Origin: an uncultured Gammaproteobacteria bacterium
Lineage (GTDB): Bacteria; Patescibacteriota; Microgenomatia; UBA10105; UBA927
Assembly (NCBI GenBank): GCA_964448085.1
Contig: CAYUUX010000003.1
Coordinates: forward strand, 5,865-69,864
Direction of reading: 5' to 3'
DNA: 64,000 nucleotides
Position numbers and translations under genes: made by a program. Numbering within the stretch: position 1 is the first letter of the stretch; each line of letters begins with the position of its first letter. Shown here piece after piece: positions 1,036 through 64,000 of the stretch. The notes under the pieces were generated by a model that saw only the letters and a program-made list of their open reading frames with translations, ran no database searches and was not told where the DNA came from.

Positions 1036-2016
1036 TTAATTTGCATCGGTGGCAGGTGAAGCACCTTCTTGCTTCACGGTATCTTTTTGGGTAAGCCGTA
1101 ACGTGGAAAGCATAGTATCGAATATGTCTTCGGTTGTCTGTTTTGTGAGTTTCATGTGGATGTTGAATCCATAATATCTATCATTCTCATGCAAATTGAC
1201 GAGAGCCCCCACATATCCTTCTCCCGGTGTCCCGAGAATCGGGAGGTACATTTGCTCGCCTCCATAATCTTGCCAGGTATTGATGCCATATATTTTGAGA
1301 TAGGTTACGCCATGAACATTTGTGTGTTCCGATACAACGGACGGAGGAAGATAAGTTTTGCTTACAGTGTGAATAAAGCGAGGATAATATTTTCCATCTT
1401 GAGTTACATATCCTGTGTGATCAGCAAATCCTCCTTCTCTTCCCGCGGAATAGTCTTTGGAAACACTGCCTATCGTAATGTCCCCGCCTCCGCATGCTCC
1501 ATATCCTGCAAAGACCGGTCGAATGAATGAGATGGACTGTATGAATGACTGACAATACTGTGTGCCCGTGTCTCCTGGCACTTCATTTCCGTTCGGTCGT
1601 TCCATCATGCCAAAATTGACAGGAAGTTTATATTCAATGCCAAGGACCGTATCTGTATAGAGTTTCCAGAGTGTTGTTGGATCAGCAGGTTGTGTTCCGG
1701 GGGGTGTGGAGTCGATATTTTGTTGAAGTGCTGATGAAACGAAAGTACGTTTTTGAACGTAGGAAAGCACACTTCGATAGAGAGGAGGATTCGTATGCCA
1801 TCCTGGGTTTGGACATACTTGTCCCATTTTACAAACCACTGCTTCGGTTTGGAAATAGGGGATGGGACAAAAGAGAACGAGGATAATCAAAAGAAATATG
1901 GCAGGGATACTAAACTTAGTATGGGATTTTTTTACAATGGGCGCTTGAGTTGGTTGCATGGATGCAGACGGTGGAAAATTTGGCGTTTGCGTTGGAGGTT
2001 GCGATGGTGATTCCAT
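1036..2016 (-). CDS. Hypothetical membrane-anchored extracellular protein with a Pro/Gln-rich N-terminal tail and one TM helix
   Basis: Low-complexity P/Q/T-rich N-terminus, then a basic patch and the hydrophobic helix IPAIFLLIILVLF. Shares the motif W(K/N)xYTDxxLG(I/F)xYxxP with the downstream ORF 2077..3231. Confidence 0.45.
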   Translation of the reverse strand: MESPSQPPTQTPNFPPSASMQPTQAPIVKKSHTKFSIPAIFLLIILVLFCPIPYFQTEAVVCKMGQVCPNPGWHTNPPLYRSVLSYVQKRTFVSSALQQNIDSTPPGTQPADPTTLWKLYTDTVLGIEYKLPVNFGMMERPNGNEVPGDTGTQYCQSFIQSISFIRPVFAGYGACGGGDITIGSVSKDYSAGREGGFADHTGYVTQDGKYYPRFIHTVSKTYLPPSVVSEHTNVHGVTYLKIYGINTWQDYGGEQMYLPILGTPGEGYVGALVNLHENDRYYGFNIHMKLTKQTTEDIFDTMLSTLRLTQKDTVKQEGASPATDAN

Positions 2017-2076: not shown

Positions 2077-3231
2077 TTACTGACAATCTTTTGGACAATT
2101 GCATGCATCTTCATATTGTGCGTCACATATGTTGTTCCCGCAAGGGCTACAGAGCGTGTGGGGAACACCCATTTGCTCTCTGCATATTTGAGAAAGATCC
2201 GGCGTTGACTGTTTGTCAGCTATTTTTGTAAGCCCAACGCAACAATCCATTGCTTTAATGGTAGGATTCGTTTTTCCTGTTGTCATATCAAAATTACTTA
2301 TCGCCCGTTCACCAGCACGAGCGCAGGAAGCTGGAGCCGACTCGGGAGCAGGAGAAGTATCAAAAAACTGTATCGTTGAAATGATTGAATCAAAACGATC
2401 AAACCAATCTTGGGCAAGTTGTGGTGCCTTTTGAGAAAAAAGGTCTTTGACAAAAACCTCTGGGGATTTCCAGATAAGAGCGTCACTGCAATTTTCTGTG
2501 TCCGTCGTAAAATATTGGGGCATCGCATCCGCATAGCTTCTCGGCGCAGTAAGCGTCAGAATAACTTGGTGATTATTTTTGAAAAAAATCAGTCCGCGGG
2601 TAAACCGCACATCACATACCTCAATTAACTGGAGAGAAAGATATGTTTTGCCGGAGAGAGACTGTATGGGAATCACGTTTTGCGAATTCGGATAGTTCGT
2701 GCCAAACGCTCGGGTGCCGTAATTTCCGTTTTCCAAAGCTTTTTTGTCTGCCAGAGCGGTTGTGAGATCAAATCCAAGAGGTTCGTCTTCATACTGAGCT
2801 AAGTCTTTGGTTCGTATATGTAAAACTACTGCGCGCGAGTTTTTGGTGTCCGCATTCAGCGTTATGTCATTGGGATATTGAATTTGGAACCCTAATTGTT
2901 CATCGGTATACGTATTCCAATCGGATGTAGCAGTTTCTTCTTTTTGCGTCTCTAACGTGGGTGTGGGAGCTTGTTGAATATTTGATATGTACATATTCTT
3001 TGACAAGAAGAAACCTCCAAAGAAGGTAGCGCATGGTACAAAAACACAAAGAAGTATGATAGATACTACGTTGCGCTTTGGTTTCCCAGTTGGTGAGGGA
3101 ATTTGAGATTCTGGTGGAATATCCTGTTTTGAAGAAGACGCTTGTTCTGGCTGTTGTAAGACGGGTTCTGGATACATATATGTAGGATAACATATTATTG
3201 TTTGATGTCGACAGCTCATTGTTAGAACCAT
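2077..3231 (-). CDS. Hypothetical membrane-anchored extracellular protein with a Cys-rich C-terminus; paralog-like to 1036..2016
   Basis: Pro-rich N-tail and the TM helix VVSIILLCVFVPCATFFGGFFL. Shared WNTYTDEQLGFQIQYP motif. C-terminal Cys cluster CSPCGNNICDAQYEDACNCPKDCQ. The real start may be the internal Met (MYPEP...). Confidence 0.45.
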   Translation of the reverse strand: MVLTMSCRHQTIICYPTYMYPEPVLQQPEQASSSKQDIPPESQIPSPTGKPKRNVVSIILLCVFVPCATFFGGFFLSKNMYISNIQQAPTPTLETQKEETATSDWNTYTDEQLGFQIQYPNDITLNADTKNSRAVVLHIRTKDLAQYEDEPLGFDLTTALADKKALENGNYGTRAFGTNYPNSQNVIPIQSLSGKTYLSLQLIEVCDVRFTRGLIFFKNNHQVILTLTAPRSYADAMPQYFTTDTENCSDALIWKSPEVFVKDLFSQKAPQLAQDWFDRFDSIISTIQFFDTSPAPESAPASCARAGERAISNFDMTTGKTNPTIKAMDCCVGLTKIADKQSTPDLSQICREQMGVPHTLCSPCGNNICDAQYEDACNCPKDCQ

Positions 3232-22655: not shown

Positions 22656-25004
22656 ATGCCAATAGAGACAACTGCCATTATCAGCAAACTTGAAACCTTC
22701 GGTATAAGCCTGTTTATGCTCATTCTGTTGGGTGCATTATGTCTTGGTGTTATCTATGCAATTTTTCTCCTATGGAAGTATCGGGGTCGTGAGGCACGAT
22801 CGCTTTCATATGTGTTACTGCAAATAGCCGTGCCCAGAGAAAATGAGATCAAAATCGATGCTGCGGAACAAATGTTTTCCAGTATTTACGGAATTTACAA
22901 TAATAAATGGTGGGCCTTTATCCAACCACAAGAACACATCTCTTTTGAGATTGTTGCCCGGAGGGAAGATATTCGGTTTTATGTGTCCGTTCCAAAGAAC
23001 ATCATGGATCTAGTGGAAAAACAGATCCATGGAGCATATCCCGGCGCAGATATCAAAGAAGTTGAAGAGCAGTCGATATTTTCGGAGAAAGGAAAGGTTG
23101 CATTTGCCGCTCTGCGTCTTCGGTATGGGAATCATTATCCGTTACGCACCTATCGGGATCTTCCAACTGACGCGCTGTCATCGATTACATCGGTTCTTGC
23201 CAAAATGCAGGAAGGTGAAGGAGCTGTCATCCAGGTATTAATACAACCAACAGGGGACAGATGGAAACGAACTGGCCGATCATATATAGCAAAGGTAAAA
23301 AAAGATGAGGCTAATCCAGAGAAGGCAAATTTTAAAGTGAATGCAAAATCGCTTGAAGCGATTGAACAAAAACTCCAGAAGCCCGGTTTTAATACGGTGA
23401 TCCGCTTGGTAGTGACTTCAGAAACAAAAGAACAGGCAAAAATTCACTTAAAAAATATCATAGCTTCATTTGGGCAATTTTCCTCAGATAATAATTCTTT
23501 CTGGGAAGTAAAATTTCCCATAAAACATTTATTCCTAACCGATTTTATCTATCGGTACTTTCCAATTTTCAATGTGCCCCTTCTTCGACAATTCAGCGTT
23601 TTGAATACCGATGAGTTGGCAAGCGTCTATCATTTGCCAAATAAGACCATTGAAACACCACATATTTTTTGGCTTAACGCGAAACGTGCACCGGCACCGC
23701 TGTTAATTCCGCAGTCAGGTCTTTATTTAGGTATGTCCAAATATCGAGGTGTGGAACGTCCAATATATGTAGGGGACGATGACAGAAGACGGCATATGTA
23801 TGTGATCGGTAAAACGGGAACCGGTAAATCACAACTTTTGGAAGAATTAGTGATGCAGGATATCAATTCGGGGAAAGGCGTTGCGGTGATTGATCCACAT
23901 GGAGATCTCATTTCAGGTATCTTAGCGAGAATGCCGGTTTCTCGTGCTGAAGATGTGATTTATTTCGATCCTTCGGACACGGAACGACCCATGGGATTGA
24001 ATATGCTGGAAGCAAAAACAGAAGAACAAAAACATTTCGTTGTCACTTCAATTGTCGGCCTTATGTACAAATTATACGATCCGATGAAAACCGGTATAAT
24101 CGGTCCGCGGTTTGAACATGCGATACGAAATGCCATGTTGACGGTTATGAGTGAACCCGGGAATACGTTCGTTGAGGTTGTCAGAGCATTGACGGATCAG
24201 TCGTTTGTGCAGGAGCTTCTGCCAAAAGTATCGGATCCTTTAATACGAAGGTACTGGACTGATCAGATAGCGCAAACCGCAGATTTTCATAAATCGGAAG
24301 TGCTTGATTATATTGTTTCAAAATTTGGGCGGTTTGTTACGAATAAGCTCATGCGCAACATTATAGGACAGTCATCTTCTTCGTTTGATTTTAGAAAGGT
24401 AATGGATGAGGGAAAAATATTACTGGTAAATCTTGCGAAAGGAAAATTGGGAGAAGAAAACAGTAATTTCCTCGGGCTTATTCTCGTACCGCGTATTTTG
24501 GTTGCGGCAATGAGCAGACAAGAAATTCCTGAAGCCGATAGACGAGATTTTTATCTCTATGTGGATGAATTTCAAAATTTTGCAACGCCAGATTTTGCGC
24601 AGATACTATCAGAGGCCAGAAAATATCGGTTGAATTTGATCGTTGCCAACCAATTTATTGGGCAGATGGAGGAGGAGGTTAAGAATGCTGTGTTTGGGAA
24701 CGTTGGAACCCTTGTCGCATTTCGTGTCGGAGTGACTGATGCCAATTATCTTCAGCACGAATTTCAGCCGACGTTCTCTGAATCCGATCTTATCAATATT
24801 GATAAATATAATGCCTATATTAAAACAATCGTTCATAACGAACCCGCGAAACCCTTTTCTATTGATTTGACGAAAAATATGAGACAAATAGAATCGGCGA
24901 GGAATCCGCAGATTGCAAATGCAATTATCCAGCTTTCCCGTTTAAAATATGGGCGTTCGAAGGAATTGGTTGAAGCAGAAGTGTCGGAACGCGCACGATT
25001 ATAA
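22656..25004 (+). CDS. Membrane-anchored HerA/FtsK/TraD-VirD4-superfamily P-loop ATPase (T4SS coupling-protein-like)
   Basis: N-terminal TM helix ISLFMLILLGALCLGVIYAIFLLW. Walker A GKTGTGKS. Walker B YLYVDEFQNF. ~780 aa. Confidence 0.5.
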   Translation: MPIETTAIISKLETFGISLFMLILLGALCLGVIYAIFLLWKYRGREARSLSYVLLQIAVPRENEIKIDAAEQMFSSIYGIYNNKWWAFIQPQEHISFEIVARREDIRFYVSVPKNIMDLVEKQIHGAYPGADIKEVEEQSIFSEKGKVAFAALRLRYGNHYPLRTYRDLPTDALSSITSVLAKMQEGEGAVIQVLIQPTGDRWKRTGRSYIAKVKKDEANPEKANFKVNAKSLEAIEQKLQKPGFNTVIRLVVTSETKEQAKIHLKNIIASFGQFSSDNNSFWEVKFPIKHLFLTDFIYRYFPIFNVPLLRQFSVLNTDELASVYHLPNKTIETPHIFWLNAKRAPAPLLIPQSGLYLGMSKYRGVERPIYVGDDDRRRHMYVIGKTGTGKSQLLEELVMQDINSGKGVAVIDPHGDLISGILARMPVSRAEDVIYFDPSDTERPMGLNMLEAKTEEQKHFVVTSIVGLMYKLYDPMKTGIIGPRFEHAIRNAMLTVMSEPGNTFVEVVRALTDQSFVQELLPKVSDPLIRRYWTDQIAQTADFHKSEVLDYIVSKFGRFVTNKLMRNIIGQSSSSFDFRKVMDEGKILLVNLAKGKLGEENSNFLGLILVPRILVAAMSRQEIPEADRRDFYLYVDEFQNFATPDFAQILSEARKYRLNLIVANQFIGQMEEEVKNAVFGNVGTLVAFRVGVTDANYLQHEFQPTFSESDLINIDKYNAYIKTIVHNEPAKPFSIDLTKNMRQIESARNPQIANAIIQLSRLKYGRSKELVEAEVSERARL

Positions 25005-56679: not shown

Positions 56680-57327
56680 ATGCCGAAGCGCTTTTTGATA
56701 GGAAACTGGAAGAGTAACATGACTCTTTCTGAGATGAATGAATGGTTTGAGGTGTTTATACCAACACCTGGTATTACCACAGTGCTATGTCTTCCGTTTA
56801 CATTGTTGTCATCAGCAAAAGAGCTTATACAAAAGAAAAACCTTCCAATTGCAATTGGGGCGCAGGATGTATCACCTTTTGGAAAAGGTCCATATACAGG
56901 AGAAGTAACTGCGGACATGATAAAAGAATTCGCTTCGTACGTATTAGTGGGGCATTCAGAAAGAAGACAATATTTTCAGGAGTCCCTTGAGGAACTTTCC
57001 TATGAAACATTGCAGGCAAAAACGGCAGGGTTAACAGTAATCTATTGTGTTGCCGATGAAGAGGAACACATACCAAAGGAAGCCGATATGGTTGCTTTTG
57101 AACCAATCGGATCCATAGGCACGGGGAATCCGGAAAAACCAGAAATTATACAGGCAAAATGCGAAATATTCAGGAAAACTTCAGGAAAAACGATATTATA
57201 TGGAGGTAGTATTACAGAGGAGATCGTTCGGGATATTCTTAAAACAGAAGCGGTAGATGGATTGCTTGTGGGTCAGGCAAGTTTGGATCCAGTGCAATTT
57301 ACTTTAATTGGTAAACAACTTTCATGA
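56680..57327 (+). CDS. tpiA: Triosephosphate isomerase
   Basis: FLIGNWKSN, VGHSERR and GGS...GLLVGQASL motifs. Confidence 0.85.
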   Translation: MPKRFLIGNWKSNMTLSEMNEWFEVFIPTPGITTVLCLPFTLLSSAKELIQKKNLPIAIGAQDVSPFGKGPYTGEVTADMIKEFASYVLVGHSERRQYFQESLEELSYETLQAKTAGLTVIYCVADEEEHIPKEADMVAFEPIGSIGTGNPEKPEIIQAKCEIFRKTSGKTILYGGSITEEIVRDILKTEAVDGLLVGQASLDPVQFTLIGKQLS

Positions 57328-58349
57328 GACACGTACGACGTTTGTTTTCACCACTAGCAGTCGGTATAGCGATAGCATGTATAGGTATTTTATGCGTGAG
57401 TATTCTTTATGTCGTTCGATTAAGCAAAGAATTTACCAAGGAAACGGGATTGAATAGGTCAATACTTATTAAACTATTAATAGATGGGGGATCCAACTTA
57501 AAATCAACTGACAATAAGACCAATATTGCGCTTCTTGGTATGGCGGGTGGTAGTCACGATGGACCAGACCTCACAGATACGATTGTAGTCGTATCATTTG
57601 ATATCAAGAAACAGACGCTTGCAATGATTTCTGTGCCTCGAGATATTTGGTCAGATTCACTCAAAGATAAGATAAACAGCGCATATCATTATGGTGAGGC
57701 AAAAAAAGAAGGTGGTGGTATCATTCTTTCCAGGGCAGTATTGGAGGATGTGGTTGGTTTCCCAATTCATTATGTGATGACGCTAGATTTTTCTCAATTT
57801 GAATCGGTTATCGATGCGTTAGGCGGCATAGATGTTAATGTAACAAAAGGATTTGTGGATAAAGAATTTCCAATTGCGGGTAAAGAAAACGATGAATGTG
57901 GAGGAGATCCGTTGTATGCATGCAGATATGAAACTGTAGCATTCACCCAGGGGAGCCAGCACATGGACGGTTCAACTGCATTAAAATATGTCAGAAGCAG
58001 AAATGCTGAAGGAGATGAGGGGACGGATTTTGCTCGAGGGAAAAGGCAGCAGGATATTATCATTGCGCTTAAAGACGCAATCATTGATGCGAAGATCTGG
58101 TTTCATCCTGCTCTGGCAAAAAAGCTGCTGGATATTATGGATAAAGCAACGGATACTGACATGACGCTTGGTGAACAGTTGACGATAGGGAAGTACGCAA
58201 TAAAAGTTAACTCTACCTCAATTCAAAAAATTTCCATAGAACCATTGCTTATAGTGCCACCCTCATGGGTGTATGGAAGATATGTGTTGGTTCCAGAAAA
58301 AGATTTTGCTTCTATTCACGCATTTATACAACAGGAAATGAACAAGTAA
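57324..58349 (+). CDS. LytR-CpsA-Psr (LCP) family cell-wall polymer phosphotransferase
   Basis: N-terminal TM, then LGMAGGSHDGPDLTDTIVVVS...ISVPRDIW. Translationally coupled to tpiA. Confidence 0.8.
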   Translation: MRHVRRLFSPLAVGIAIACIGILCVSILYVVRLSKEFTKETGLNRSILIKLLIDGGSNLKSTDNKTNIALLGMAGGSHDGPDLTDTIVVVSFDIKKQTLAMISVPRDIWSDSLKDKINSAYHYGEAKKEGGGIILSRAVLEDVVGFPIHYVMTLDFSQFESVIDALGGIDVNVTKGFVDKEFPIAGKENDECGGDPLYACRYETVAFTQGSQHMDGSTALKYVRSRNAEGDEGTDFARGKRQQDIIIALKDAIIDAKIWFHPALAKKLLDIMDKATDTDMTLGEQLTIGKYAIKVNSTSIQKISIEPLLIVPPSWVYGRYVLVPEKDFASIHAFIQQEMNK

Positions 58350-58405: not shown

Positions 58406-60310
58406 TTAAAGGACTAACCCGAGCATAAGCAAAACAACGCTTCCAACGACTGTTAATATTCCCAAAAATCCAGGGCCGATACCTGAGACTGGAACCTTTG
58501 GCGTTGGAATCCCAGTTGGAGTGGCTTCAGCAATCAATTGACTACTCGTTGGTGTCGGTGAGGATGCAGCAAAGGAACGTCGTGTTGGCGTGGGCGTTGA
58601 CGTTGCTCCAGGACAGGAACAATCAACTTCTGACGGACAGGCAGCTTTCCTACATCGTTTAACCCCAGTTGTTGTCACACACGATAAACCCGATTCACAG
58701 TTGTCGTCGCTGTCACAGGACGCGTCACAAGTTCCCGGTGCTGGTGTTGCTGTCGGACCACTCGTTGGGGTGTTGGTTGGTGTATTAGTCAACGTTCCAG
58801 TTGGTGTATTGGTTGGTGTATTAGTCAACGTTCCAGTTGGTGTATTGGTTGGCGTATCGCTAATTGTTCCCGTTGGTGTTTTTGTGGGGGTTTTTGTTGG
58901 TGTTTTTGTGGGGGTTTTTGTTGGTTGTTTTGGCGTTGCTGTTGGGCCACCCTGACAAGAACCACCACATTGAATAAGGGCATCACATCCTGTGACCGGC
59001 ATACAATAATTTCCAGATGTTCCAGTTATGGTATCGATTTGTCCGCACTCAGTAGGACTGAGTTTTCCGCTGTTGCATGGGCCAAATTCCCACCACACAC
59101 CAGGATCACCTTCTCCACAACCCTTCCCTACAGTTCCGCATCCGAGCGGACAATGGAAGAAGACACAATACCCATTAAATGTAGCTAAAGAACCAGTGCT
59201 TGAACCGATATGACAATCTTGTGGAAGGCCTGGCCCATTTGGATACCAATTTCGTATTCCAGGACATCCGGATATGCCGCTTGGTGTGGCTGTCGGAGGA
59301 GGTTTTGTCGGAGTGACACATGCTGCATAATTCAAAACACACTTTTGTCCCGAAGGACATGTATAAACAAACGTTGAAGGAGGATTACATACATAAGATG
59401 ATGCTACGCATTTTTTACCATTATCTGCACAACTGTTGCTTGCTGGCGTTGGCACTATGCATGTTGCATCGCTCGGCACGCACTTTCTCCCCGGGGCGCA
59501 ATGCCAATTATATGTCGTACTTGGAGTACAAGTTGCTTTTTCGTCCACACATTTATCGTCATGGTCAGCACAATCATCTAGTTTTTTAGTTGGTGTTGCG
59601 GTGGATTTTTGGGTTGGTGTTCTGGTTGCAGTAGGTGCTGTGATTTCATCCCATCTACAACAGTTTCTTCCTTCGTATGGTGCTATACAAGAAGCTTTAG
59701 TTGCGATAGTGGAACAAACAATGTCAGCACAAATCCCAGATCCTTGTGCTTGCTTACAAGATCCTGCAGCTCTGCTTCTGATTTCTGCAATTTGTGGAGA
59801 TCGAGCTATGTAGTAGAGTGCAAGAGGAAGTGTCAAAATTAAAAAGAGCACAATGGCAAGAAGTGGTCCAGCACCCTTAGTTTTTTTCTCTTTGGGTTTA
59901 TTATCGGGTGGAACTGTAGGTTTTTGAGCATCTTCCTTTGTTTCTTCTGGTTTTACGATTACAGAAGGATTGGATGGTTCTAACTCTGGAAGCGGTTCAA
60001 GAGCCGGAGGTTTCGGGAATGGAGGGGGCACATCTGTTGAGTTTGATAAAGTTGGTTGTTCCAAAACAGGCGGTGTAATTGGTTCAAGCGGCTTATCCTT
60101 ATTAGGAAGAGGTTTTTCATTTTTTTTTGATTCCTTTCCTTCTTCAACTGGCGTTGTTTGCATGAGAGGAGCTGGGGGAACGGGAATAACATCTGTTTTT
60201 TCCGCCTCAACTATTGGTTCTGATGGGGGTGTCGAACCCAATGCTTTTGCAGCATCATCAATCAATTTTTGTGGTGATATGGGTTCGTCTGCCATTGAAA
60301 CAAAAAACAA
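58406..60310 (-). CDS. Double-anchored Cys-rich Thr/Pro-repeat surface protein (paralog 1)
   Basis: Pro-rich N-tail, TM helix (LLAIVLFLILTLPLALYYIA), Cys-rich ectodomain, PTKT/TNTPTNTPTGTL repeats, and the conserved module CDASCDSDDNCESGLSC...RCRKAACPSEVDCSCP. C-terminus is VPVSG plus GPGFLGILTVVGSVVLLMLGLVL. Confidence 0.5.
   Translation of the reverse strand: MFFVSMADEPISPQKLIDDAAKALGSTPPSEPIVEAEKTDVIPVPPAPLMQTTPVEEGKESKKNEKPLPNKDKPLEPITPPVLEQPTLSNSTDVPPPFPKPPALEPLPELEPSNPSVIVKPEETKEDAQKPTVPPDNKPKEKKTKGAGPLLAIVLFLILTLPLALYYIARSPQIAEIRSRAAGSCKQAQGSGICADIVCSTIATKASCIAPYEGRNCCRWDEITAPTATRTPTQKSTATPTKKLDDCADHDDKCVDEKATCTPSTTYNWHCAPGRKCVPSDATCIVPTPASNSCADNGKKCVASSYVCNPPSTFVYTCPSGQKCVLNYAACVTPTKPPPTATPSGISGCPGIRNWYPNGPGLPQDCHIGSSTGSLATFNGYCVFFHCPLGCGTVGKGCGEGDPGVWWEFGPCNSGKLSPTECGQIDTITGTSGNYCMPVTGCDALIQCGGSCQGGPTATPKQPTKTPTKTPTKTPTKTPTGTISDTPTNTPTGTLTNTPTNTPTGTLTNTPTNTPTSGPTATPAPGTCDASCDSDDNCESGLSCVTTTGVKRCRKAACPSEVDCSCPGATSTPTPTRRSFAASSPTPTSSQLIAEATPTGIPTPKVPVSGIGPGFLGILTVVGSVVLLMLGLVL
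58775..58846. repeat. Perfect 36-bp x2 tandem repeat (with a partial third copy) inside a coding region
   Basis: ggttggtgtattagtcaacgttccagttggtgtatt duplicated head-to-tail. It encodes TNTPTNTPTGTL on the minus strand. Adjacent 12-bp PTKT-coding repeats run to ~58930. Confidence 0.8.
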
Positions 60311-60367
60311 TACAATACGTCCTATATCCAGCGTATCGCAATGGATGCAATATAGTCAAGGAAGAAC

Positions 60368-61378
60368 TTAAAGAAGAAGACCTAAGAGAAGGAGAACGAC
60401 ACTTCCTGCAACAGTTAATACGCCGGTTATGTTTAACCCTCCAGAGACAGGCATATCCTGTCCTGATGTATCCTCTGTATCTGATTGATCATCTGCAACG
60501 ACAGGACACGAACAGTCTGACTCAGCTGGACACTCAGCATTTCGACATCGGTTTACACCATTGACTGAAGAACAACTCAAACCGGATGTACAATCATCAT
60601 CGGTTTCGCAAGACGCATCACATTGAGCTGGGTCATTATTCGCTGCTCCTTGCGTTGGAGTTGCTGTAGGTTCACCCGTTGGTTCATCTGTTGGTGTTGC
60701 TGTGGGTTCACCCGTTGGTTCATCTGTTGGTGTTGCTGTGGGTTCACCCGTTGGGGTTTTTGTGGGTGTTTTTGTTGGGGTCTTTGTAGGATCTGTTTTT
60801 TTAGAATCTTCGCAAGCTTTTGCTCCGCAGCTAGCTTTAAAGCAGTAGTGTCCACAGCTATACGAATATATTCCGCAATCTTTTGGTGCTGTTACACATG
60901 CGTCACAATTTAACGTTGATACGGGCGTTTTATAATCACACCCATATATAGTATCGTCCTTTCCTCCAACAGGCTCTGGTTTTTCTGTTGGTGTTGCCGT
61001 TGGCACATTGGCATCAACCCAATTGCAACAAGATGCACCAGTTATAGTTCCTTTTTTTGACAAGCAAATTGTTTTGTCTGTAATACTCGGTCCGCATTGA
61101 CCAGTGCATCCATTTACGGTTTGATAATCGCCTGTGCCATTAAAATGGCAAGGATACTCTCCAGCAGCTTTACTTCGCTGCTCTGTTAATTGGCGTTGTT
61201 GAGAGATATAGAAAACAGCAACCGGAAGGGTAATGATTAAAAATACAACAATAAATAGAATTACCCATTTCCCGGCGCCTGATTTTTTCTTTATCGGTTG
61301 ACTAGAAGAGCTGCTTCCTTGTGTGGGAGCTGCGGCATCTGTTGGGGGAATGATGAATGTATCTGGGGTTGCAGCCAT
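60368..61378 (-). CDS. Double-anchored Cys-rich Thr/Pro-repeat surface protein (paralog 2)
   Basis: Same architecture as 58406..60310. Module CDASCETDDDCTSGLSC...RCRNAECPAESDCSCP. Repeat GEPTATPTDEPT x3. C-terminus is MPVSG plus GLNITGVLTVAGSVVLLLLGLLL. Confidence 0.5.
   Translation of the reverse strand: MAATPDTFIIPPTDAAAPTQGSSSSSQPIKKKSGAGKWVILFIVVFLIITLPVAVFYISQQRQLTEQRSKAAGEYPCHFNGTGDYQTVNGCTGQCGPSITDKTICLSKKGTITGASCCNWVDANVPTATPTEKPEPVGGKDDTIYGCDYKTPVSTLNCDACVTAPKDCGIYSYSCGHYCFKASCGAKACEDSKKTDPTKTPTKTPTKTPTGEPTATPTDEPTGEPTATPTDEPTGEPTATPTQGAANNDPAQCDASCETDDDCTSGLSCSSVNGVNRCRNAECPAESDCSCPVVADDQSDTEDTSGQDMPVSGGLNITGVLTVAGSVVLLLLGLLL
60669..60753. repeat. Perfect 36-bp tandem repeat, ~2.4 copies, in a coding region
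   Basis: ggttcacccgttggttcatctgttggtgttgctgtg repeated, followed by 12-bp PTKT-coding repeats to ~60790. Confidence 0.8.
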
Positions 61379-61424: not shown

Positions 61425-62753
61425 TTATTTTATAAAAAATACCACACCTCCTCCCAAAAAGAGCGTGGTTCCCAAAATGAGAAGAATAAGCGTTGGAAGA
61501 AGTGATCCACTTGTCGGCATGGGTTCTGATGTATCCGTTGCTTCTTCTGTTGGTGTTGCGGAATCCGTTGCTTCTTCTGTTGGTGTTGGAGTTTCCGTTA
61601 ATTCTCCCGAAGGTGTTGCATCTCCCAATACTTGCGTGCCACTTTTAAGAACGGTAAATGTATGGGTGATTGCAACCGGTTTTTTCTTTGCATCAACAGT
61701 CGTCATGGTCACGGTTTGTTTGCCTGCCTGAAGGATTTTTGATGGGGTATACCGCCATAAACCGTCAGATCCGACTGTTGTCGTGCCAACGATAGGTGTG
61801 GCTGATCCTAATGTCACAGTTACTTTTTTTCCGGGAATGCCAATACCGCTGATGAGTGGTCGGTTACTCGTAAGTGTTGCACCTTCAGCTGGTTGGGTAA
61901 GCGTGATACTGCCAGATGTGGTTTTGGTAGTGGTTTGTGTTCCCAAAACGGAAGTATTTGATGTTTTACTGTTTTTTGGAACGACGGCAATATTGGATTT
62001 TGTCAGTTTTTTAGCATCCCTTCCGCGAAAATCATAAGTATTTCCGAGCGTTATATCAGGAACAGGAGCGTCATTGAGTGTGTCTGTTTGCACTTGCGAT
62101 TCCTGTATACCAAGTTTTACCGTAATGGATTCTGTCATGCGTTCGGAAACGGGGAGATAGGAACTTCCATCGTCAACGCGCGTTGCTCCTAAGGGGATTA
62201 TCCATGAACCGGAATTCCTCACGACTGCAGAAAGCAGTTGGCCGTCTGCCAGCCGAAGAAAAACAATCGCTCCTTCTGCGGGAGTTCCTCCTTCGGTAAA
62301 TACAGATCCGTATGCAGGATCAATACCGGGTGCCACTTCATCAATAGATGGGAATGTGACGACTTCATATGCTTTCGAATCGATGGGATACTTTTTTCCA
62401 TTGGATAAGATCGTGACTGTGTATTTTGTTGAAGGAATAAGTGTTTTTACGGTAACGCTGTGCGTGCGATACTTACCAAGTTTGCCTGTTGCATCCCGTT
62501 CGTCAAATGCAGAATATTTTTTTCCGTCTGCAGATTGTATCAGAAGTCCTCCTGAGGTTGGTTCTTCGGTTTCCCATACGAAAGAGAAAGATGATTCTGT
62601 GATATTCGTGACGGTTACCTGCTTGGGCTCAAGGGTAACAGATGCGCGTGTTTGTCCTCGAGCCATATATTCAAAAAGAAACGAAACCCCTGCAATTATG
62701 GCAATGACAAGCACTATGGCTAAAAGCGTTGGTATTTTTCGTGGTCCAAGCAT
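61425..62753 (-). CDS. Secreted surface protein with an N-terminal signal anchor and the same C-terminal sorting-signal-like tail
   Basis: N-terminal TM/signal sequence and a beta-rich ectodomain. The acidic T/P repeat TPTEEATDxx occurs x2 (30-bp DNA repeat at 61541..61600). C-terminus is MPTSG plus SLLPTLILLILGTTLFLGGGVVFFIK. Confidence 0.45.
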   Translation of the reverse strand: MLGPRKIPTLLAIVLVIAIIAGVSFLFEYMARGQTRASVTLEPKQVTVTNITESSFSFVWETEEPTSGGLLIQSADGKKYSAFDERDATGKLGKYRTHSVTVKTLIPSTKYTVTILSNGKKYPIDSKAYEVVTFPSIDEVAPGIDPAYGSVFTEGGTPAEGAIVFLRLADGQLLSAVVRNSGSWIIPLGATRVDDGSSYLPVSERMTESITVKLGIQESQVQTDTLNDAPVPDITLGNTYDFRGRDAKKLTKSNIAVVPKNSKTSNTSVLGTQTTTKTTSGSITLTQPAEGATLTSNRPLISGIGIPGKKVTVTLGSATPIVGTTTVGSDGLWRYTPSKILQAGKQTVTMTTVDAKKKPVAITHTFTVLKSGTQVLGDATPSGELTETPTPTEEATDSATPTEEATDTSEPMPTSGSLLPTLILLILGTTLFLGGGVVFFIK

Positions 62754-62761
62754 ACAAAACC

Positions 62762-62956
62762 TTAGAGCTTCACTTTCTTCTCTAATATATCCAGTGTACC
62801 AGTATCAAGCGAAGGTGTTAAGGGTGTGATGATCTGATTGACTTTTGTTTCCACGGTGGATGTCTTTGTGGTTTTTACCAATTCAAAAAAGATCCACGAC
62901 AATACAGTGACAAAGGTGAATAAAGTGATGAGAAATAAATCGCGATCTGTTTTCAT
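62762..62956 (-). CDS. Small single-TM protein in the pilus operon
   Basis: 64 aa with an N-terminal TM helix. Its stop overlaps the downstream start. Confidence 0.3.
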   Translation of the reverse strand: MKTDRDLFLITLFTFVTVLSWIFFELVKTTKTSTVETKVNQIITPLTPSLDTGTLDILEKKVKL

Positions 62957-63603
62957 AAGGTTTGATAATAAGTTAATACTTTCATGTTTAGCTGTATGAG
63001 CGGGGACGCAACAACCGTTTGTCCACTTTTGTTTGTTGAGAATGTCAGAGAATCGATTACAAAAACCCGACGCATGGAAATAAGATTGGTAAAGAAGGAT
63101 GAGAGCGTCTGGTATGTCCCCTCAATGGAAGCAGTTATGGAAAATTCTACGTTTTTAACAGCGAACGCCTTGCTTGATGCGCTTGCCGACGATTCAACAA
63201 TGACAGGGACAGCGCTTACCTGTATGGCGGAAATAGATGCTCCCGCTTGTGATGCAAGATCACGGATAACCCGAACAACATCGATTGCCTCAGGATTTTG
63301 CGGTATCGCGTCTGCAGCAAGCGGCAACTTAGTTTGCACATTTTCAAGAAGCGCTTGTGCCTGAATGAGGGCATTAATTTTGGTATCCATCTTTTCATTA
63401 ATTTCCTTCTTATCAATAATTTCCCGACGAAGATAGAGAATGGTTTGAATCGTTGGACGTATTGCGTACCAACCAAAAAGGGCTACGACAAGAAAAAAGA
63501 AAATAACAGTCGAATATGTCCGTGTCTTTGGTTTTGCCAGCATCGGTTCAAGCTGTTGATAGTACTTCTTATATTGGTTTGGTAGATTGAATTGAGAAGC
63601 CAT
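62953..63603 (-). CDS. pilO: Type IV pilus assembly protein PilO-like
   Basis: Short cytoplasmic N-terminus, one TM (VIFFFLVVALFGWYAI), a coiled-coil segment, and a C-terminal GTYQTLSSFFTNLISMRRVFVIDSLTF motif typical of PilO. Confidence 0.5.
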   Translation of the reverse strand: MASQFNLPNQYKKYYQQLEPMLAKPKTRTYSTVIFFFLVVALFGWYAIRPTIQTILYLRREIIDKKEINEKMDTKINALIQAQALLENVQTKLPLAADAIPQNPEAIDVVRVIRDLASQAGASISAIQVSAVPVIVESSASASSKAFAVKNVEFSITASIEGTYQTLSSFFTNLISMRRVFVIDSLTFSTNKSGQTVVASPLIQLNMKVLTYYQTL

Positions 63604-63604
63604 A

Positions 63605-64000
63605 TTATTTTTTTGTTTGCACGCCCGCTATTTGAGCGTTCATGGTATATTGAATACCTATTTTTGATGCTTTATCTACTGTACCGATTTCAATATTGCT
63701 CAATGACTTATTTGCGCTCGCGTTTAAAAGAAATTGAGAAAAGCTTTGGATGGTGAGTGATATGACTGATGCGGTAATTTTATTATTCGTTACTGTAAGC
63801 GATTGAAGGTATGTGCCGGAGGGCAACAGTGTGTGTACGCTTGTTAATGTTTGGGTGGGTACAGTCTGTTTATCAAGCAATGCCTTAATTTTCGCGAGCG
63901 CATCCTGTGTTTGGCGAAACGAAGTTTCCAGATCCTTATTCGCTTCGATGATTTCTTGTTTTTGGAGGATTTCATCGCGTAAATCCGTGAGTTGTCTATC
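63605..64000 (-). CDS. pilN: Type IV pilus assembly PilN-like protein, 5'-truncated by the window edge
   Basis: The reading frame stays open to position 64000 (…DRQLTDLRDEILQKQEII…coiled coil). The C-terminal LLPSGTYLQSLTV…ITASV is PilN-like. It lies immediately upstream of pilO. Confidence 0.45.
   Translation of the reverse strand, partial: DRQLTDLRDEILQKQEIIEANKDLETSFRQTQDALAKIKALLDKQTVPTQTLTSVHTLLPSGTYLQSLTVTNNKITASVISLTIQSFSQFLLNASANKSLSNIEIGTVDKASKIGIQYTMNAQIAGVQTKK

What the first reader, a model, noticed from the sequence alone, without database searches (positions are those of the whole stretch)
58406..61378. Tandem paralogs with hairpin topology and a conserved 8-Cys module
Both proteins have a cytoplasmic Pro-rich N-tail, TM1, a large Cys-rich ectodomain, Thr/Pro repeats, then the near-identical module CDASC(D/E)xDDxC(E/T)SGLSC(x5-6)RCR(K/N)A(A/E)CPxE(V/S)DCSCP before the C-terminal hydrophobic segment. 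TM helices at both ends imply an extracellular loop tethered at both ends, or a processed anchor. The Cys spacing suggests a small disulfide-knot domain that I do not recognise as a named family.
Basis: seen in the sequence. Interest (0 to 1): 0.6.

Follow-up and report, generated by a model that had tools for sequence, protein, structure and literature searches.

The report
Wall-anchored cysteine-module surface proteins
These are two old, diverged sister genes of an uncultivated ultra-small (CPR/Microgenomates) bacterium; they most likely encode cell-surface proteins whose two "membrane helices" are an export signal and a cell-wall sorting signal, and they carry a small 8-cysteine module that is widespread in this group but absent from the Pfam-A and NCBIfam libraries.

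Summary
Two adjacent minus-strand genes share the same layout: p1 at 58406-60295 (629 aa from the ATG) and p2 at 60368-61378 (336 aa). That layout is a cytoplasmic N-tail, one hydrophobic segment, Cys-rich ectodomains, a Pro/Thr tandem-repeat linker, one 8-Cys module, and a C-terminal hydrophobic segment.

They are not an assembly duplicate. The module DNA is 65% identical. Each gene has its own orthologue next to it in at least six other Microgenomates contigs.

The module matches no Pfam-A or NCBIfam model and is not EGF. Its profile finds 1119 protein clusters among 1.84 billion. These usually carry 2-5 copies joined by PT linkers. AlphaFold gives a confident disulfide-stapled beta-hairpin (pLDDT 88.5) with only non-significant knottin/Dickkopf-like matches.

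The stable "hairpin topology" is probably wrong. The C-terminus is [VM]PVSG plus 23-24 hydrophobic residues. This is an LPXTG-like sorting signal shared by 74% of module proteins and by the neighbouring fn3 protein, but it lacks the basic tail. The first hydrophobic segment is followed by RS(R/K)A, as in a short classical signal peptide nearby.

Best reading: precursors of sortase-type, wall-anchored, disulfide-rich surface proteins. No sortase lies in the window, and no processing step has been shown.

The parts
58406..60295 (-). p1, the 'long' paralogue (629 aa from the ATG at 60295; the mechanical ORF starts at a TTG at 60310)
   Evidence: ORF. The start is set by the orthologues' MADEP N-termini. 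It has two hydrophobic segments only.
60236..60295 (-). p1 conserved cytoplasmic N-terminal peptide MADEPISPQKLIDDAAKALG
   Evidence: Nearly invariant in long-lineage orthologues of L001, L003 and L004. No change over the first 21 residues against strain L007.
59888..60235 (-). p1 Pro-rich, fast-evolving cytoplasmic linker (aa 26-141 in TTG numbering)
   Evidence: Sequence. Most strain differences cluster here.
59804..59872 (-). p1 N-proximal hydrophobic segment (AGPLLAIVLFLILTLPLALYYIA), preceded by KEKKTKG
   Evidence: Conserved TLP(I/L)A(I/L)YYI core in all orthologues.
59765..59803 (-). p1 juxtamembrane motif RSPQIAEIRSRAA (candidate signal-peptidase site after RSRA)
   Evidence: The same motif ends a short signal-peptide-like N-terminus of a cohesin protein and occurs in every sorting-signal protein of the related loci.
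59645..59758 (-). p1 first Cys domain (6 Cys ending in CCxW), shared with p2
   Evidence: BLASTP segment at 3e-14. Cys positions.
59318..59572 (-). p1 two tandem 6-Cys repeats (C-x6-C-x6-C-x9-C-x5-C-x6-C)
   Evidence: Read from the sequence. No family match. Variable between strains.
58955..59266 (-). p1 12-Cys domain with the invariant core CGEGDPGVWWEFGPCNSGKL..ECGQIDT
   Evidence: Shared only with P0006, P0007, P0252 and P0253. The AF2 model is unusable at pLDDT 47.
58736..58954 (-). p1 Pro/Thr linker, encoded by 12/24/36-nt tandem repeats
58613..58729 (-). p1 8-Cys module CDASCDSDDNCESGLSCVTTTGVKRCRKAACPSEVDCSC
   Evidence: local HMM E=2.3e-13.
58481..58495 (-). p1 sorting-type pentapeptide VPVSG
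58409..58480 (-). p1 C-terminal 24-residue hydrophobic tail with no basic residue
60368..61378 (-). p2, the 'short' paralogue (336 aa)
   Evidence: 89% identical orthologue P0001. Short-lineage orthologues in L001-L004.
61340..61378 (-). p2 conserved N-terminal peptide MAATPDTFIIPPT (orthologues: MPTTDTFIIPPM)
61205..61267 (-). p2 N-proximal hydrophobic segment, preceded by KKKSGAGK
61163..61204 (-). p2 juxtamembrane motif SQQRQLTEQRSKAA
61016..61150 (-). p2 first Cys domain (6 Cys ending in CCNW)
   Evidence: Invariant against strain L007.
60812..60940 (-). p2 second, variable 8-Cys region
   Evidence: A hotspot of strain differences.
60650..60793 (-). p2 Pro/Thr linker (Pfam PT repeat; 36-nt tandem DNA repeat)
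60506..60622 (-). p2 8-Cys module CDASCETDDDCTSGLSCSSVNGVNRCRNAECPAESDCSC
   Evidence: E=2.1e-15. This is the first sequence of the AF2 model.
60371..60454 (-). p2 sorting-type signal: MPVSG plus a 23-residue hydrophobic tail without a basic end
61425..62753 (-). p3, upstream co-directional fn3/Big_13 surface protein with a signal-peptide-like N-terminus (..QTRA|S) and a C-terminal MPTSG plus hydrophobic tail ending in K
62762..62956 (-). Conserved 64-aa single-TM protein between PilO and p3
   Evidence: Present in L001, L007, L009 and L011.
62953..64000 (-). PilO-like gene (62953-63603) and PilN-like gene (63605 onward, running off the window); these head the conserved gene string
   Evidence: Pfam PilO at 1.7e-7. 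Pfam PilN at 7.5e-7. The reading frame is intact.
57324..58349 (+). Convergent LCP (LytR-CpsA-Psr) glycopolymer transferase, the conserved neighbour
   Evidence: Pfam 3.7e-32 and TIGR00350. Syntenic in all loci.

Best explanation
p1 and p2 are precursors of Gram-positive-style surface proteins of a Microgenomates (Gottesmanbacteria-like) CPR bacterium. The proposed mechanism has six steps.

1. The N-proximal hydrophobic segment has a Lys-rich patch on its N-side. It drives Sec export with the N-terminus inside the cell. The segments are shown; the orientation is inferred.
2. This segment is the core of an unusually long signal peptide. It is probably cut after the conserved RS(R/K)A. The conserved extreme N-terminal peptide would act earlier, in targeting or partner binding. 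All of this is inferred.
3. The exported part is a string of small Cys-rich domains that become disulfide-bonded. The enzymes would be the MdbA/DsbA-VKOR type reported as enriched in CPR. The Cys6-Cys8 pairing has direct sequence support. The rest is inferred.
4. The Pro/Thr repeats are extended spacers and may be O-glycosylated. In Woesebacteria the equivalent locus carries a PMT protein O-mannosyltransferase.
5. The C-terminal [VM]PVSG plus 23-24 hydrophobic residues is a cell-wall sorting signal. It holds the precursor in the membrane until a sortase-type transpeptidase cuts within the motif. The protein is then joined to peptidoglycan. This step is inferred.
6. The 8-Cys module is a compact disulfide-stapled beta-hairpin unit. 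It serves as a protease-resistant building block next to the wall anchor. The faster-evolving N-terminal Cys domains are the exposed, probably adhesive, part.
For: Architecture and paralogy.

The sorting signal is the strongest point.
- Of 144 module-bearing proteins, 106 end in xPx[S/T/A/V]G plus 17-36 residues, with a mode of 24.
- Position 1 of the motif is L in 67, I in 15, T in 10 and V in 9 of these proteins.
- Relatives with classical LPKTG and a basic tail exist. P0187 passes TIGR01167 at 19.9 bits against a cut-off of 15.9.
- In Woesebacteria and a further Microgenomates locus (L011) the syntenic fn3 protein ends in VPETG or IPVTG, then a TM segment and a basic tail.
- Three consecutive genes here carry the signal. 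No other ORF of 120 aa or more in the window does.

N-terminal processing: every protein in the related loci with TM plus ..Q..[IT]R[SA][RK]A also has the C-terminal signal. This includes a cohesin protein whose N-terminus is a short MKK-h-region-RSRAA signal peptide.

Module:
- The profile finds 1119 clusters (213 at E<=1e-10) among 1.84 billion representatives.
- 352 unique instances have 8 invariant Cys.
- The AF2 model has pLDDT 88.5 and a beta-hairpin.
- Paired loss of Cys6 and Cys8 occurs in 3 instances.

Surface-protein evolution: p1 and p2 are 90.9% and 91.3% identical to a sister strain, against 95.5-100% for six neighbours. The anchors, the module and the first Cys domain are nearly unchanged between the strains (one substitution in each of the module, the first Cys domain and the p1 sorting-signal region), and the TM/juxtamembrane segment is fully invariant.

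Context:
- A conserved string runs PilN-PilO-small TM-fn3-Cys proteins, then a convergent LCP, then UvrD and FemAB.
- The string extends to Woesebacteria, with a PMT gene added.

[quoted passage not shown] MdbA-like oxidoreductase and VKOR are enriched in CPR (PMC6744442). Cys-rich extracellular proteins were proposed for attachment in another CPR phylum (PMC4736985).
Against: - No sortase, DsbA/MdbA, VKOR or PMT gene is in this 64-kb window. I could not scan the rest of the genome.
- The signal lacks the positively charged tail that defines classical LPXTG signals; 96 of the 106 signal-bearing proteins lack it.
- The motif has V/M for L and S for T. TIGR01167 and PF00746 do not score p1, p2 or p3 even at E<=1.
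- The candidate signal-peptidase site lies 10-13 residues past the hydrophobic core, which is long for a c-region. No signal-peptide predictor was available.
- The conserved cytoplasmic N-terminal peptides and the conserved TM sequence suggest the N-terminal part has a function of its own. That would fit a retained anchor.
- The disulfide state rests on a model and one co-loss pattern.
- The function of the module and of the ectodomains is unknown. Domain C could not be modelled.
Confidence: 0.6

Rival explanations
1. Stable double anchor. Neither end is processed, so the ectodomain is a loop held in the membrane by a helix at each end. A variant has the N-terminal helix retained while the C-terminus is wall-linked, making a membrane-to-wall tether with a conserved cytoplasmic peptide.
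For: - Each protein has two strong hydrophobic segments.
- There is no basic tail of the kind that normally marks a sortase signal.
- The extreme N-terminal peptides and the TM sequence are strongly conserved across genomes and strains, so the N-terminal part is under selection.
- The distance from the hydrophobic core to RS(R/K)A is long.
Against: - The conserved pentapeptide lies exactly at the start of the tail. It grades into LPxTG plus basic tail in relatives and in the syntenic fn3 protein.
- The tail length is fixed (mode 24) and runs to the very C-terminus. A plain TM anchor would be expected to have a cytoplasmic stop-transfer charge, as the non-signal members do (P0113, P0127, P0167, P0225).
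- The same RSRA motif ends a short classical signal peptide.
Confidence: 0.17
2. The tail-less C-terminal signal is read by something other than a sortase. Candidates are an exosortase/archaeosortase-like or otherwise unknown CPR enzyme. The result would be a lipid or other anchor, as for the PGF-CTERM S-layer glycoproteins of archaea, which also have a Thr-rich glycosylated stretch before the anchor.
For: - The signal differs from every curated sorting-signal model: no NCBIfam or Pfam hit for p1, p2 or p3.
- There is no basic tail, and the tail has a fixed length with a conserved G-rich pattern and a ...GL.L end.
- A PT-rich linker lies directly upstream.
Against: - No exosortase-type motif (PEP, PGF, VPXXXP, GlyGly) is present, and none of those NCBIfam models hit.
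- The motif family is centred on LPx[A/S/T]G.
- Sortase is the enzyme reported as near-ubiquitous in Microgenomates.
- No such gene lies in any of the fetched loci.
Confidence: 0.1
3. The 8-Cys module is a metal-binding unit (Zn or Fe-S) rather than a disulfide-bonded one. This would suit an anaerobe. It is a rival only for the module's chemistry, not for the protein class.
For: - Eight invariant Cys lie within about 40 residues.
- CPR bacteria are mostly anaerobes (general knowledge).
- One relative fuses the modules to an AhpC/TSA thioredoxin-like domain.
Against: - The predicted location is extracellular.
- The AF2 model is a knottin/Dickkopf-like hairpin, not a zinc ribbon.
- Cys6 and Cys8 are lost as a pair, as disulfide partners are.
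- There is no conserved His.
- Disulfide-forming enzymes are enriched in CPR.
Confidence: 0.1
4. The paralogy is an assembly or sequencing duplication.
For: The only support is the shared low-complexity PT-coding repeats.
Against: - Module DNA is 65% identical and the full proteins 26%.
- No long direct repeat exists apart from the PT repeats.
- The short and long lineages each have orthologues in the same order in L001, L002, L003, L004 and L007/L008. Orthologue modules are 82-84% identical; paralogue modules are 56-66%.
Confidence: 0.01

Closest known systems
LPXTG cell-wall-anchored surface proteins of Gram-positive bacteria (sortase substrates; TIGR01167 / PF00746)
   Same: N-terminal export signal, modular ectodomain, repeat linker, then a C-terminal pentapeptide with Pro at position 2 and Gly at position 5, followed by a hydrophobic stretch at the very end. 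Relatives with the same module carry LPKTG and pass TIGR01167.
   Different: The motif is [VM]PVSG. There is no positively charged tail. p1, p2 and p3 do not score on the curated models. The region before the hydrophobic core is 37-147 aa long and has a conserved tip.
Actinomyces oris / Corynebacterium pathway: MdbA-VKOR disulfide formation, LCP-mediated glycosylation of the sortase substrate GspA, then sortase anchoring
   Same: It combines Cys-containing secreted substrates, a neighbouring LCP-family gene and a sortase-type signal. MdbA-like and VKOR families are reported as enriched in CPR.
   Different: Nothing here shows that this LCP acts on these proteins. No MdbA, VKOR or sortase gene is in the window. 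The GspA/LcpA link is recalled from my own knowledge and was not tested.
Knottin / Dickkopf CRD2-colipase / WAP / carboxypeptidase-inhibitor small disulfide-rich folds, and the Dumpy DPY module (PF21164, PDB 1OIG)
   Same: The central C-x5-C-x5-C-x(n)-C beta-hairpin. The best Foldseek matches are Dkk1 (TMq 0.58-0.62 over 27-29 residues) and spider toxins. The best sequence match in the PDB is the DPY module.
   Different: All matches are non-significant: Foldseek E>=0.47, PDB profile E=0.034, Pfam DPY 13.5-19.1 bits against a cut-off of 27. The module has 8 Cys, including a terminal C-x-C and a conserved CRNP motif. It is bacterial and is used as PT-linked tandem units.
Fungal cellulase linker plus CBM1 (Pro/Thr-rich O-glycosylated linker joined to a ~36-aa disulfide mini-domain)
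   Same: PT linker followed by a tiny Cys-stabilised domain. CBM1 appears among the weak structural matches (E 3.6-6.8).
   Different: The module has no conserved aromatic face. There is no significant similarity and no catalytic domain.
Archaeal PGF-CTERM S-layer glycoproteins (archaeosortase substrates)
   Same: A Thr-rich, probably glycosylated stretch lies immediately before a C-terminal hydrophobic sorting segment.
   Different: There is no PGF motif, no basic tail and no NCBIfam hit. No archaeosortase or exosortase is seen in any locus.
Streptococcal serine-rich repeat adhesins and YSIRK-type LPXTG proteins (specialised long signal peptides paired with LPXTG anchors)
   Same: An unusual, conserved N-terminal signal region is paired with a C-terminal sorting signal and a repeat region that may be glycosylated.
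   Different: No sequence similarity. The motifs here are MADEPxSPQQLIDDAAKALG / MPTTDTFIIPPM and ..Q..IRSRAA. This comparison comes from my own knowledge and was not tested.

Membership tests
LPXTG cell-wall sorting signal (TIGR01167 / PF00746) | LPXTG-type pentapeptide near the C-terminus | tested here: inconclusive
   p1 has VPVSG, p2 MPVSG and p3 MPTSG. Pro at position 2 and Gly at position 5 are kept; L becomes V/M and T becomes S. Across 106 relatives position 1 is L in 67, I in 15, T in 10 and V in 9; position 4 is A in 59, S in 30 and T in 12.
LPXTG cell-wall sorting signal (TIGR01167 / PF00746) | Hydrophobic membrane-spanning stretch after the motif | tested here: met
   Tails of 23-26 hydrophobic residues with Kyte-Doolittle peaks of 2.4-2.7.
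LPXTG cell-wall sorting signal (TIGR01167 / PF00746) | Positively charged C-terminal tail | tested here: not met
   p1 ends ...LMLGLVL and p2 ends ...LLGLLL. 96 of 106 relatives have no K or R in the last 8 residues. p3 ends in a single K.
LPXTG cell-wall sorting signal (TIGR01167 / PF00746) | Score above the curated model cut-off | tested here: not met
   No hit for p1, p2 or p3 at E<=1. Relative P0187 passes at 19.9 against 15.9. P0112 falls just below at 14.8.
LPXTG cell-wall sorting signal (TIGR01167 / PF00746) | A sortase encoded in the same genome | not testable with these tools
   None is in the 64-kb window or in the fetched flanks. [quoted passage not shown]
EGF-like domain | Six-Cys EGF pattern recognised by the Pfam EGF models or an EGF fold | tested here: not met
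   No EGF family hit at E<=1. The best EGF structural match ranks 14th, with E 2.8 and probability 0.20. The module has 8 Cys with different spacing.
Dumpy DPY module (PF21164) | Pfam gathering score of 27 bits | tested here: not met
   13.5-19.1 bits in multi-module relatives and none in p1 or p2. The PDB 1OIG match has E=0.034.
Inhibitor cystine knot (knottin) | Three disulfides in the knotted I-IV, II-V, III-VI arrangement on a beta-hairpin | tested here: inconclusive
   The hairpin is predicted with confidence. Foldseek matches to knottins are not significant (E>=0.75). Only the Cys6-Cys8 pairing can be inferred.
Myxococcus Cys-rich repeat (TIGR04201) / DUF4215 | Score above the curated cut-off on the module | tested here: not met
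   17.2 bits against 25 in P0106. DUF4215 hits a different part of P0123.
PT repeat (PF04886) | Pfam gathering score | tested here: met
   p2 scores 31 bits against 26.2. The p1 linker has the same composition and tandem DNA repeats but gives no Pfam hit.
Exosortase/archaeosortase/rhombosortase signals (PEP-CTERM, PGF-CTERM, GlyGly-CTERM and others) | Signature tripeptide, TM segment and basic cluster, recognised by the NCBIfam models | tested here: not met
   No NCBIfam hit. The motifs are absent from the sequence.

The most novel reading that the evidence does not exclude
The tail-less xPx[A/S]G signal with its fixed 23-24-residue tail may mark a dedicated sorting route specific to Microgenomates/CPR. 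Two further features would belong to it: the N-terminal ..QxQ(D/E)IR(S/E)(K/R)AA motif, and the conserved PilN-PilO-fn3-...-(PMT)-LCP locus. On this reading the specificity or chemistry differs from classical sortase anchoring. p1 and p2 would keep their conserved cytoplasmic peptides and act as trans-envelope tethers or receptors at the symbiont-host interface.
Probability: 0.15. Interest if true: 0.7.

Novelty: new variant of a known kind. Interest (0 to 1): 0.42.

Why it matters
CPR bacteria are thought to live attached to other cells, yet their surface proteins are almost entirely unannotated. This finding adds three usable items.

- A compact 8-Cys domain family is missing from Pfam-A and NCBIfam. 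It has at least 1119 clusters at 50% identity, and every named member seen so far is from Microgenomates. It could be turned into a model that labels many "hypothetical" surface proteins.
- A tail-less LPXTG-like C-terminal signal would let sortase substrates be predicted in these genomes.
- A conserved surface-protein locus next to PilN/PilO, LCP and, in Woesebacteria, a protein O-mannosyltransferase points to the main glycosylated, wall-anchored coat or adhesins of the group.

None of this overturns known biology. The protein class is the familiar Gram-positive one.

Tried and rejected
- The search for homologous proteins with the module alignment returned nothing, because the word index found only 6 candidates. 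A search was wasted.
The closer alignment A2 found only 3 GTDB loci.
- The structure of the p1 12-Cys domain, built from a 5-sequence alignment, failed at pLDDT 47. Its PDB profile search gave only noise.
- Searching with the p1 ectodomain found just two extra relatives.
- Two cluster-member runs gave a taxon name for only one protein, a Woesebacteria member.
- The promoter/terminator scan was no better than shuffles.
- I looked for sortase (TLxTC regex and Pfam on 43 window ORFs across), DsbA, VKOR and PMT in the window. None was found.
- Considered and rejected: EGF, the DPY module, the Myxococcus Cys repeat and CBM1 as family assignments, all sub-threshold. Assembly duplication was also rejected.
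- The positional counterpart in Woesebacteria-type loci shares only the Pro-rich tail/TM/juxtamembrane design with p1, not the ectodomain.

Full report
**What is there**

The region holds two co-directional minus-strand genes.
- p1 runs from 58406 to 60295. The mechanical ORF begins at a TTG at 60310, but all orthologues begin MADEP at the ATG.
- p2 runs from 60368 to 61378.

BLASTP between them gives 1e-21 over the C-terminal part (query residues 366-626) and 3e-14 over the membrane-proximal part.

Each protein has only two hydrophobic regions, one N-proximal and one at the extreme C-terminus (in p2 the C-terminal region is returned as two overlapping windows). Both are about 6% Cys and 22-27% Pro+Thr.

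The shared plan is:
1. a conserved N-terminal peptide;
2. a cytoplasmic linker, about 115 aa and Pro-rich in p1, about 25 aa in p2;
3. a Lys patch;
4. a hydrophobic segment with a conserved TLP(I/V)A(I/V)YYI core;
5. a juxtamembrane motif ending in RS(R/K)AA;
6. a 6-Cys domain ending in CCxW;
7. lineage-specific Cys domains;
8. a Pro/Thr linker encoded by 12/24/36-nt tandem repeats;
9. one 8-Cys module;
10. a short linker, then [VM]PVSG and 23-24 hydrophobic residues up to the stop codon.

A profile of the module finds one copy in each protein. It finds no other copy in the six-frame translation of the window.

**Not an artefact, and an old duplication**

Module DNA is 65% identical between p1 and p2, and the full proteins are 26% identical. 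Apart from the PT-coding repeats there is no long direct repeat.

The pair, short gene first and long gene second, recurs in the same order in L001, L002, L003, L004 and L007/L008. L004 has three paralogues.

Orthologue modules are 82-84% identical, while paralogue modules are 56-66% identical. Each lineage also has its own N-terminal peptide:
- short lineage: MPTTDTFIIPPM;
- long lineage: MADEPxSPQQLIDDAAKALG.

**Organism**

The named relatives are all from Microgenomates-type CPR bacteria:
- Candidatus Gottesmanbacteria (P0003; L005);
- a "Microgenomates group" genome (L004);
- Candidatus Woesebacteria (P0111).

One syntenic record is titled "Gammaproteobacteria" (L003). I take that to be a mislabel.

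The window is rich in Gram-positive-type envelope genes. It has two class A PBPs, BacA, VanW, two FemAB genes and an LCP gene.

**The 8-Cys module**

- *Consensus.* The family consensus is C[ND]xxCxxxxDCxxGLxCxxGxCRNPxCxxxxDCxC, with a variable loop before Cys5.
- *Known families.* No model of Pfam-A or NCBIfam recognises it in p1 or p2. In relatives with several copies the only traces are below threshold. These are Dumpy_DPY at 13.5-19.1 bits against 27, plus WAP, carboxypeptidase inhibitor and the Myxococcus Cys repeat.
- *Solved structures.* A profile search of the PDB gives at best the 24-residue Dumpy DPY module at E=0.034, followed by conotoxins and knottins.
- *Distribution.* Against 1.84 billion cluster representatives the profile finds 1119 proteins at E<=1e-3 and 213 at E<=1e-10. 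Among the retrieved sequences I extracted 352 unique full-length instances. Of these, 345 have all eight Cys in register.
- *Disulfide evidence.* In three instances exactly Cys6 and Cys8 are replaced together, which is the behaviour of a disulfide pair.
- *Predicted fold.* AlphaFold2 on a 98-sequence alignment gives pLDDT 88.5 and a beta-hairpin at residues 18-23 and 26-31.
- *Structural neighbours.* Foldseek against the PDB returns Dickkopf-1 CRD2, spider knottins, omwaprin and CBM1. All have E>=0.47 and none reaches E<=0.001.

The module is therefore a generic disulfide-stapled hairpin mini-domain. It is not EGF, and it is not a demonstrable member of any named family. A few weak partial hits are Cys-repeat proteins that share only the first half, C-x3-C-x5-C-x5-C. 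I guess from their sequences that these are eukaryotic.

**What the typical family member looks like**

Most hits are 200-450 aa. They have a short basic N-terminus, one hydrophobic segment and 2-5 modules separated by PT linkers.

Of 144 module proteins, 106 end in xPx[S/T/A/V]G followed by 17-36 residues, with a mode of 24.
- Position 1 is L in 67, I in 15, T in 10 and V in 9.
- Position 4 is A in 59, S in 30 and T in 12.
- 96 of the 106 have no Lys or Arg in the last eight residues.

Some members carry a textbook LPKTG with a hydrophobic stretch and a basic tail. P0187 passes TIGR01167.

Others replace the signal by an ordinary TM segment with a long charged cytoplasmic tail. This kind of swapping between sorting signal and plain anchor is what I would expect of surface proteins.

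**The C-terminal segment is a sorting signal, not a plain helix**

In this window three consecutive genes carry it: p3 MPTSG, p2 MPVSG and p1 VPVSG. No other ORF of 120 aa or more does.

In Woesebacteria and a further Microgenomates locus (L011) the syntenic fn3 protein ends in VPETG or IPVTG, followed by a TM segment and a basic tail.

Méheust et al. report a sortase family as near-ubiquitous in Microgenomates. They also report an MdbA-like thiol-disulfide oxidoreductase with VKOR as enriched in CPR (PMC6744442).

The classical definition is not fully met. The basic tail is missing and the curated models do not score p1, p2 or p3. I therefore say these proteins work like sortase substrates. 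I do not file them as members of the LPXTG family.

**The N-terminal segment**

In all fetched loci, every protein with a TM followed by ..Q..[IT]R[SA][RK]A also has the C-terminal signal. One of them is a cohesin-domain protein with N-terminus MKKIVFLVVGLLLLIAVPATVYFVGEQQDIRSRAAP. By eye this is a short Gram-positive-type signal peptide with a small-x-Ala site.

By analogy, p1 and p2 would be cut after RS(R/K)A. Their long N-regions would then be part of an extended signal peptide.

There are caveats:
- The site lies 10-13 residues beyond the hydrophobic core.
- No signal-peptide predictor was available.
- The extreme N-terminal peptides and the TM core are under strong constraint.

A retained N-terminal anchor therefore remains a live rival.

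**Evolutionary behaviour**

Against a sister strain (L007) identities are:

| Protein | Identity |
|---|---|
| p1 | 90.9% |
| p2 | 91.3% |
| TIM | 95.5% |
| LCP | 95.9% |
| p3 | 97.7% |
| PilO | 98.6% |
| UvrD | 99.5% |
| 64-aa protein | 100% |

Substitutions pile up in the Pro-rich cytoplasmic linker and in the lineage-specific Cys domains. The TM/juxtamembrane segment does not change at all. The N-terminal tip, the first Cys domain, the module and the sorting signal are nearly unchanged (no change in the first 21 residues of p1; one substitution in each of the first Cys domain, the module and the p1 sorting-signal region). This fits exposed, variable heads on conserved anchoring parts.

**Genomic context**

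A conserved string runs S20, PilN, PilO, a small TM protein, the fn3/Big_13 protein and the Cys proteins. A convergent LCP gene follows, then (TIM), UvrD and FemAB. It is present in Gottesmanbacteria-like genomes.

With module proteins P0111 and P0168 in the same slot, it is also present in Woesebacteria and in another lineage.

In those lineages an 807-825-aa PMT-family protein O-mannosyltransferase sits directly downstream of the PT-linker proteins. It passes the Pfam thresholds for PMT, PMT_2 and PMT_4TMC. This makes O-glycosylation of the PT linkers a reasonable but untested inference. No PMT was found in this window.

PilN here is intact but runs off the window end.

**Conclusion**

The two "TM helices" are best read as the two transient membrane-embedded signals of a wall-anchored surface-protein precursor. 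The Cys module is a real and abundant domain family that Pfam-A and NCBIfam do not model. The C-terminal signal is a tail-less variant of LPXTG.

My confidence in the sortase-type surface-protein reading is about 0.6. The biochemical role of the module and of the other Cys domains is unknown. My working view is that the module is a rigid, protease-resistant structural unit near the anchor, and that the variable N-terminal domains do the binding.

Noticed in passing
window 59765-59803 and 61163-61204; L001 1824-2867, L003 255-1115, L004 262-1119, L009 8487-8807 and 9085-10011, L011 9047-9994: A juxtamembrane motif of roughly [Y/L]x[V/I]xQxQ(D/E/N)(I/L)R(S/E)(K/R)AA follows the N-terminal hydrophobic segment of otherwise unrelated secreted proteins. 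In the Gottesmanbacteria-like loci scanned (L001-L004 and the window) it always co-occurs with a C-terminal xPx[T/S/A]G signal; the L009/L011 Pro-rich-tail proteins carry the motif but no sorting signal. Many other module proteins instead have RLYQLRQxxVAPNAPxSxPxAA after the segment. These may be lineage-specific signal-peptide or targeting motifs.
   Followed up: partly
L009 10924-13347; L011 11502-13979: In Woesebacteria-type genomes a PMT-family protein O-mannosyltransferase lies directly next to the PT-linker/8-Cys-module genes. Two further multi-TM proteins that I guess to be GT-C-like, with no Pfam hit, lie in the same conserved locus.
   Followed up: partly
window 1036-2016 (-) and 2077-3231 (-): Two more proteins have a Pro-rich N-terminal tail followed by one TM segment. 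The second ends in a Cys-rich stretch, CSPCGNNICDAQYEDACNCPKDCQ. Neither has a significant Pfam hit.
   Followed up: partly
window 1-64000: GC skew is positive in every 2-kb bin (0.04-0.23), whichever strand the genes are on. This recalls the strand composition disparity reported for a complete Microgenomates genome (PMC7143001).
   Followed up: no
window 22656-25004 (+): A 782-aa protein has TrwB/TraG/VirD4-type coupling-protein domains, suggesting a conjugation- or T4SS-related ATPase in a CPR genome.
   Followed up: no
L011 16528-19674; L012 12400-15546: The syntenic UvrD helicase is 1048 aa in this lineage and carries Hint/intein-splicing domains, i.e. an intein insertion.
   Followed up: no
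P0123 (840 aa, metagenomic): One relative combines five 8-Cys modules with DUF4215 repeats and a C-terminal AhpC/TSA thioredoxin-like domain. This hints at a redox link for some family members.
   Followed up: no
L003 (CAZSTG010000001.1): The record is titled 'uncultured Gammaproteobacteria bacterium'. It nevertheless carries the full Microgenomates-type locus, gene for gene as in L004, so the label is probably wrong.
   Followed up: partly
window 58955-59266; P0006, P0007, P0252, P0253: The 12-Cys domain of p1 has an almost invariant core, CGEGDPGVWWEFGPCNSGKL..ECGQIDT. It occurs in only a handful of proteins. In some of them it is followed by what looks like a beta-sandwich (weak, sub-threshold CarboxypepD_reg match in P0253) instead of the module and sorting signal. 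There is no family or structure match, and the AF2 model failed.
   Followed up: partly
window 62762-62956 (-): A 64-aa single-TM protein is 100% identical to its counterpart in sister strain L007, and a small single-TM protein (64-105 aa) occupies the same slot between PilO and the fn3 protein in every locus examined. Its function is unknown.
   Followed up: no
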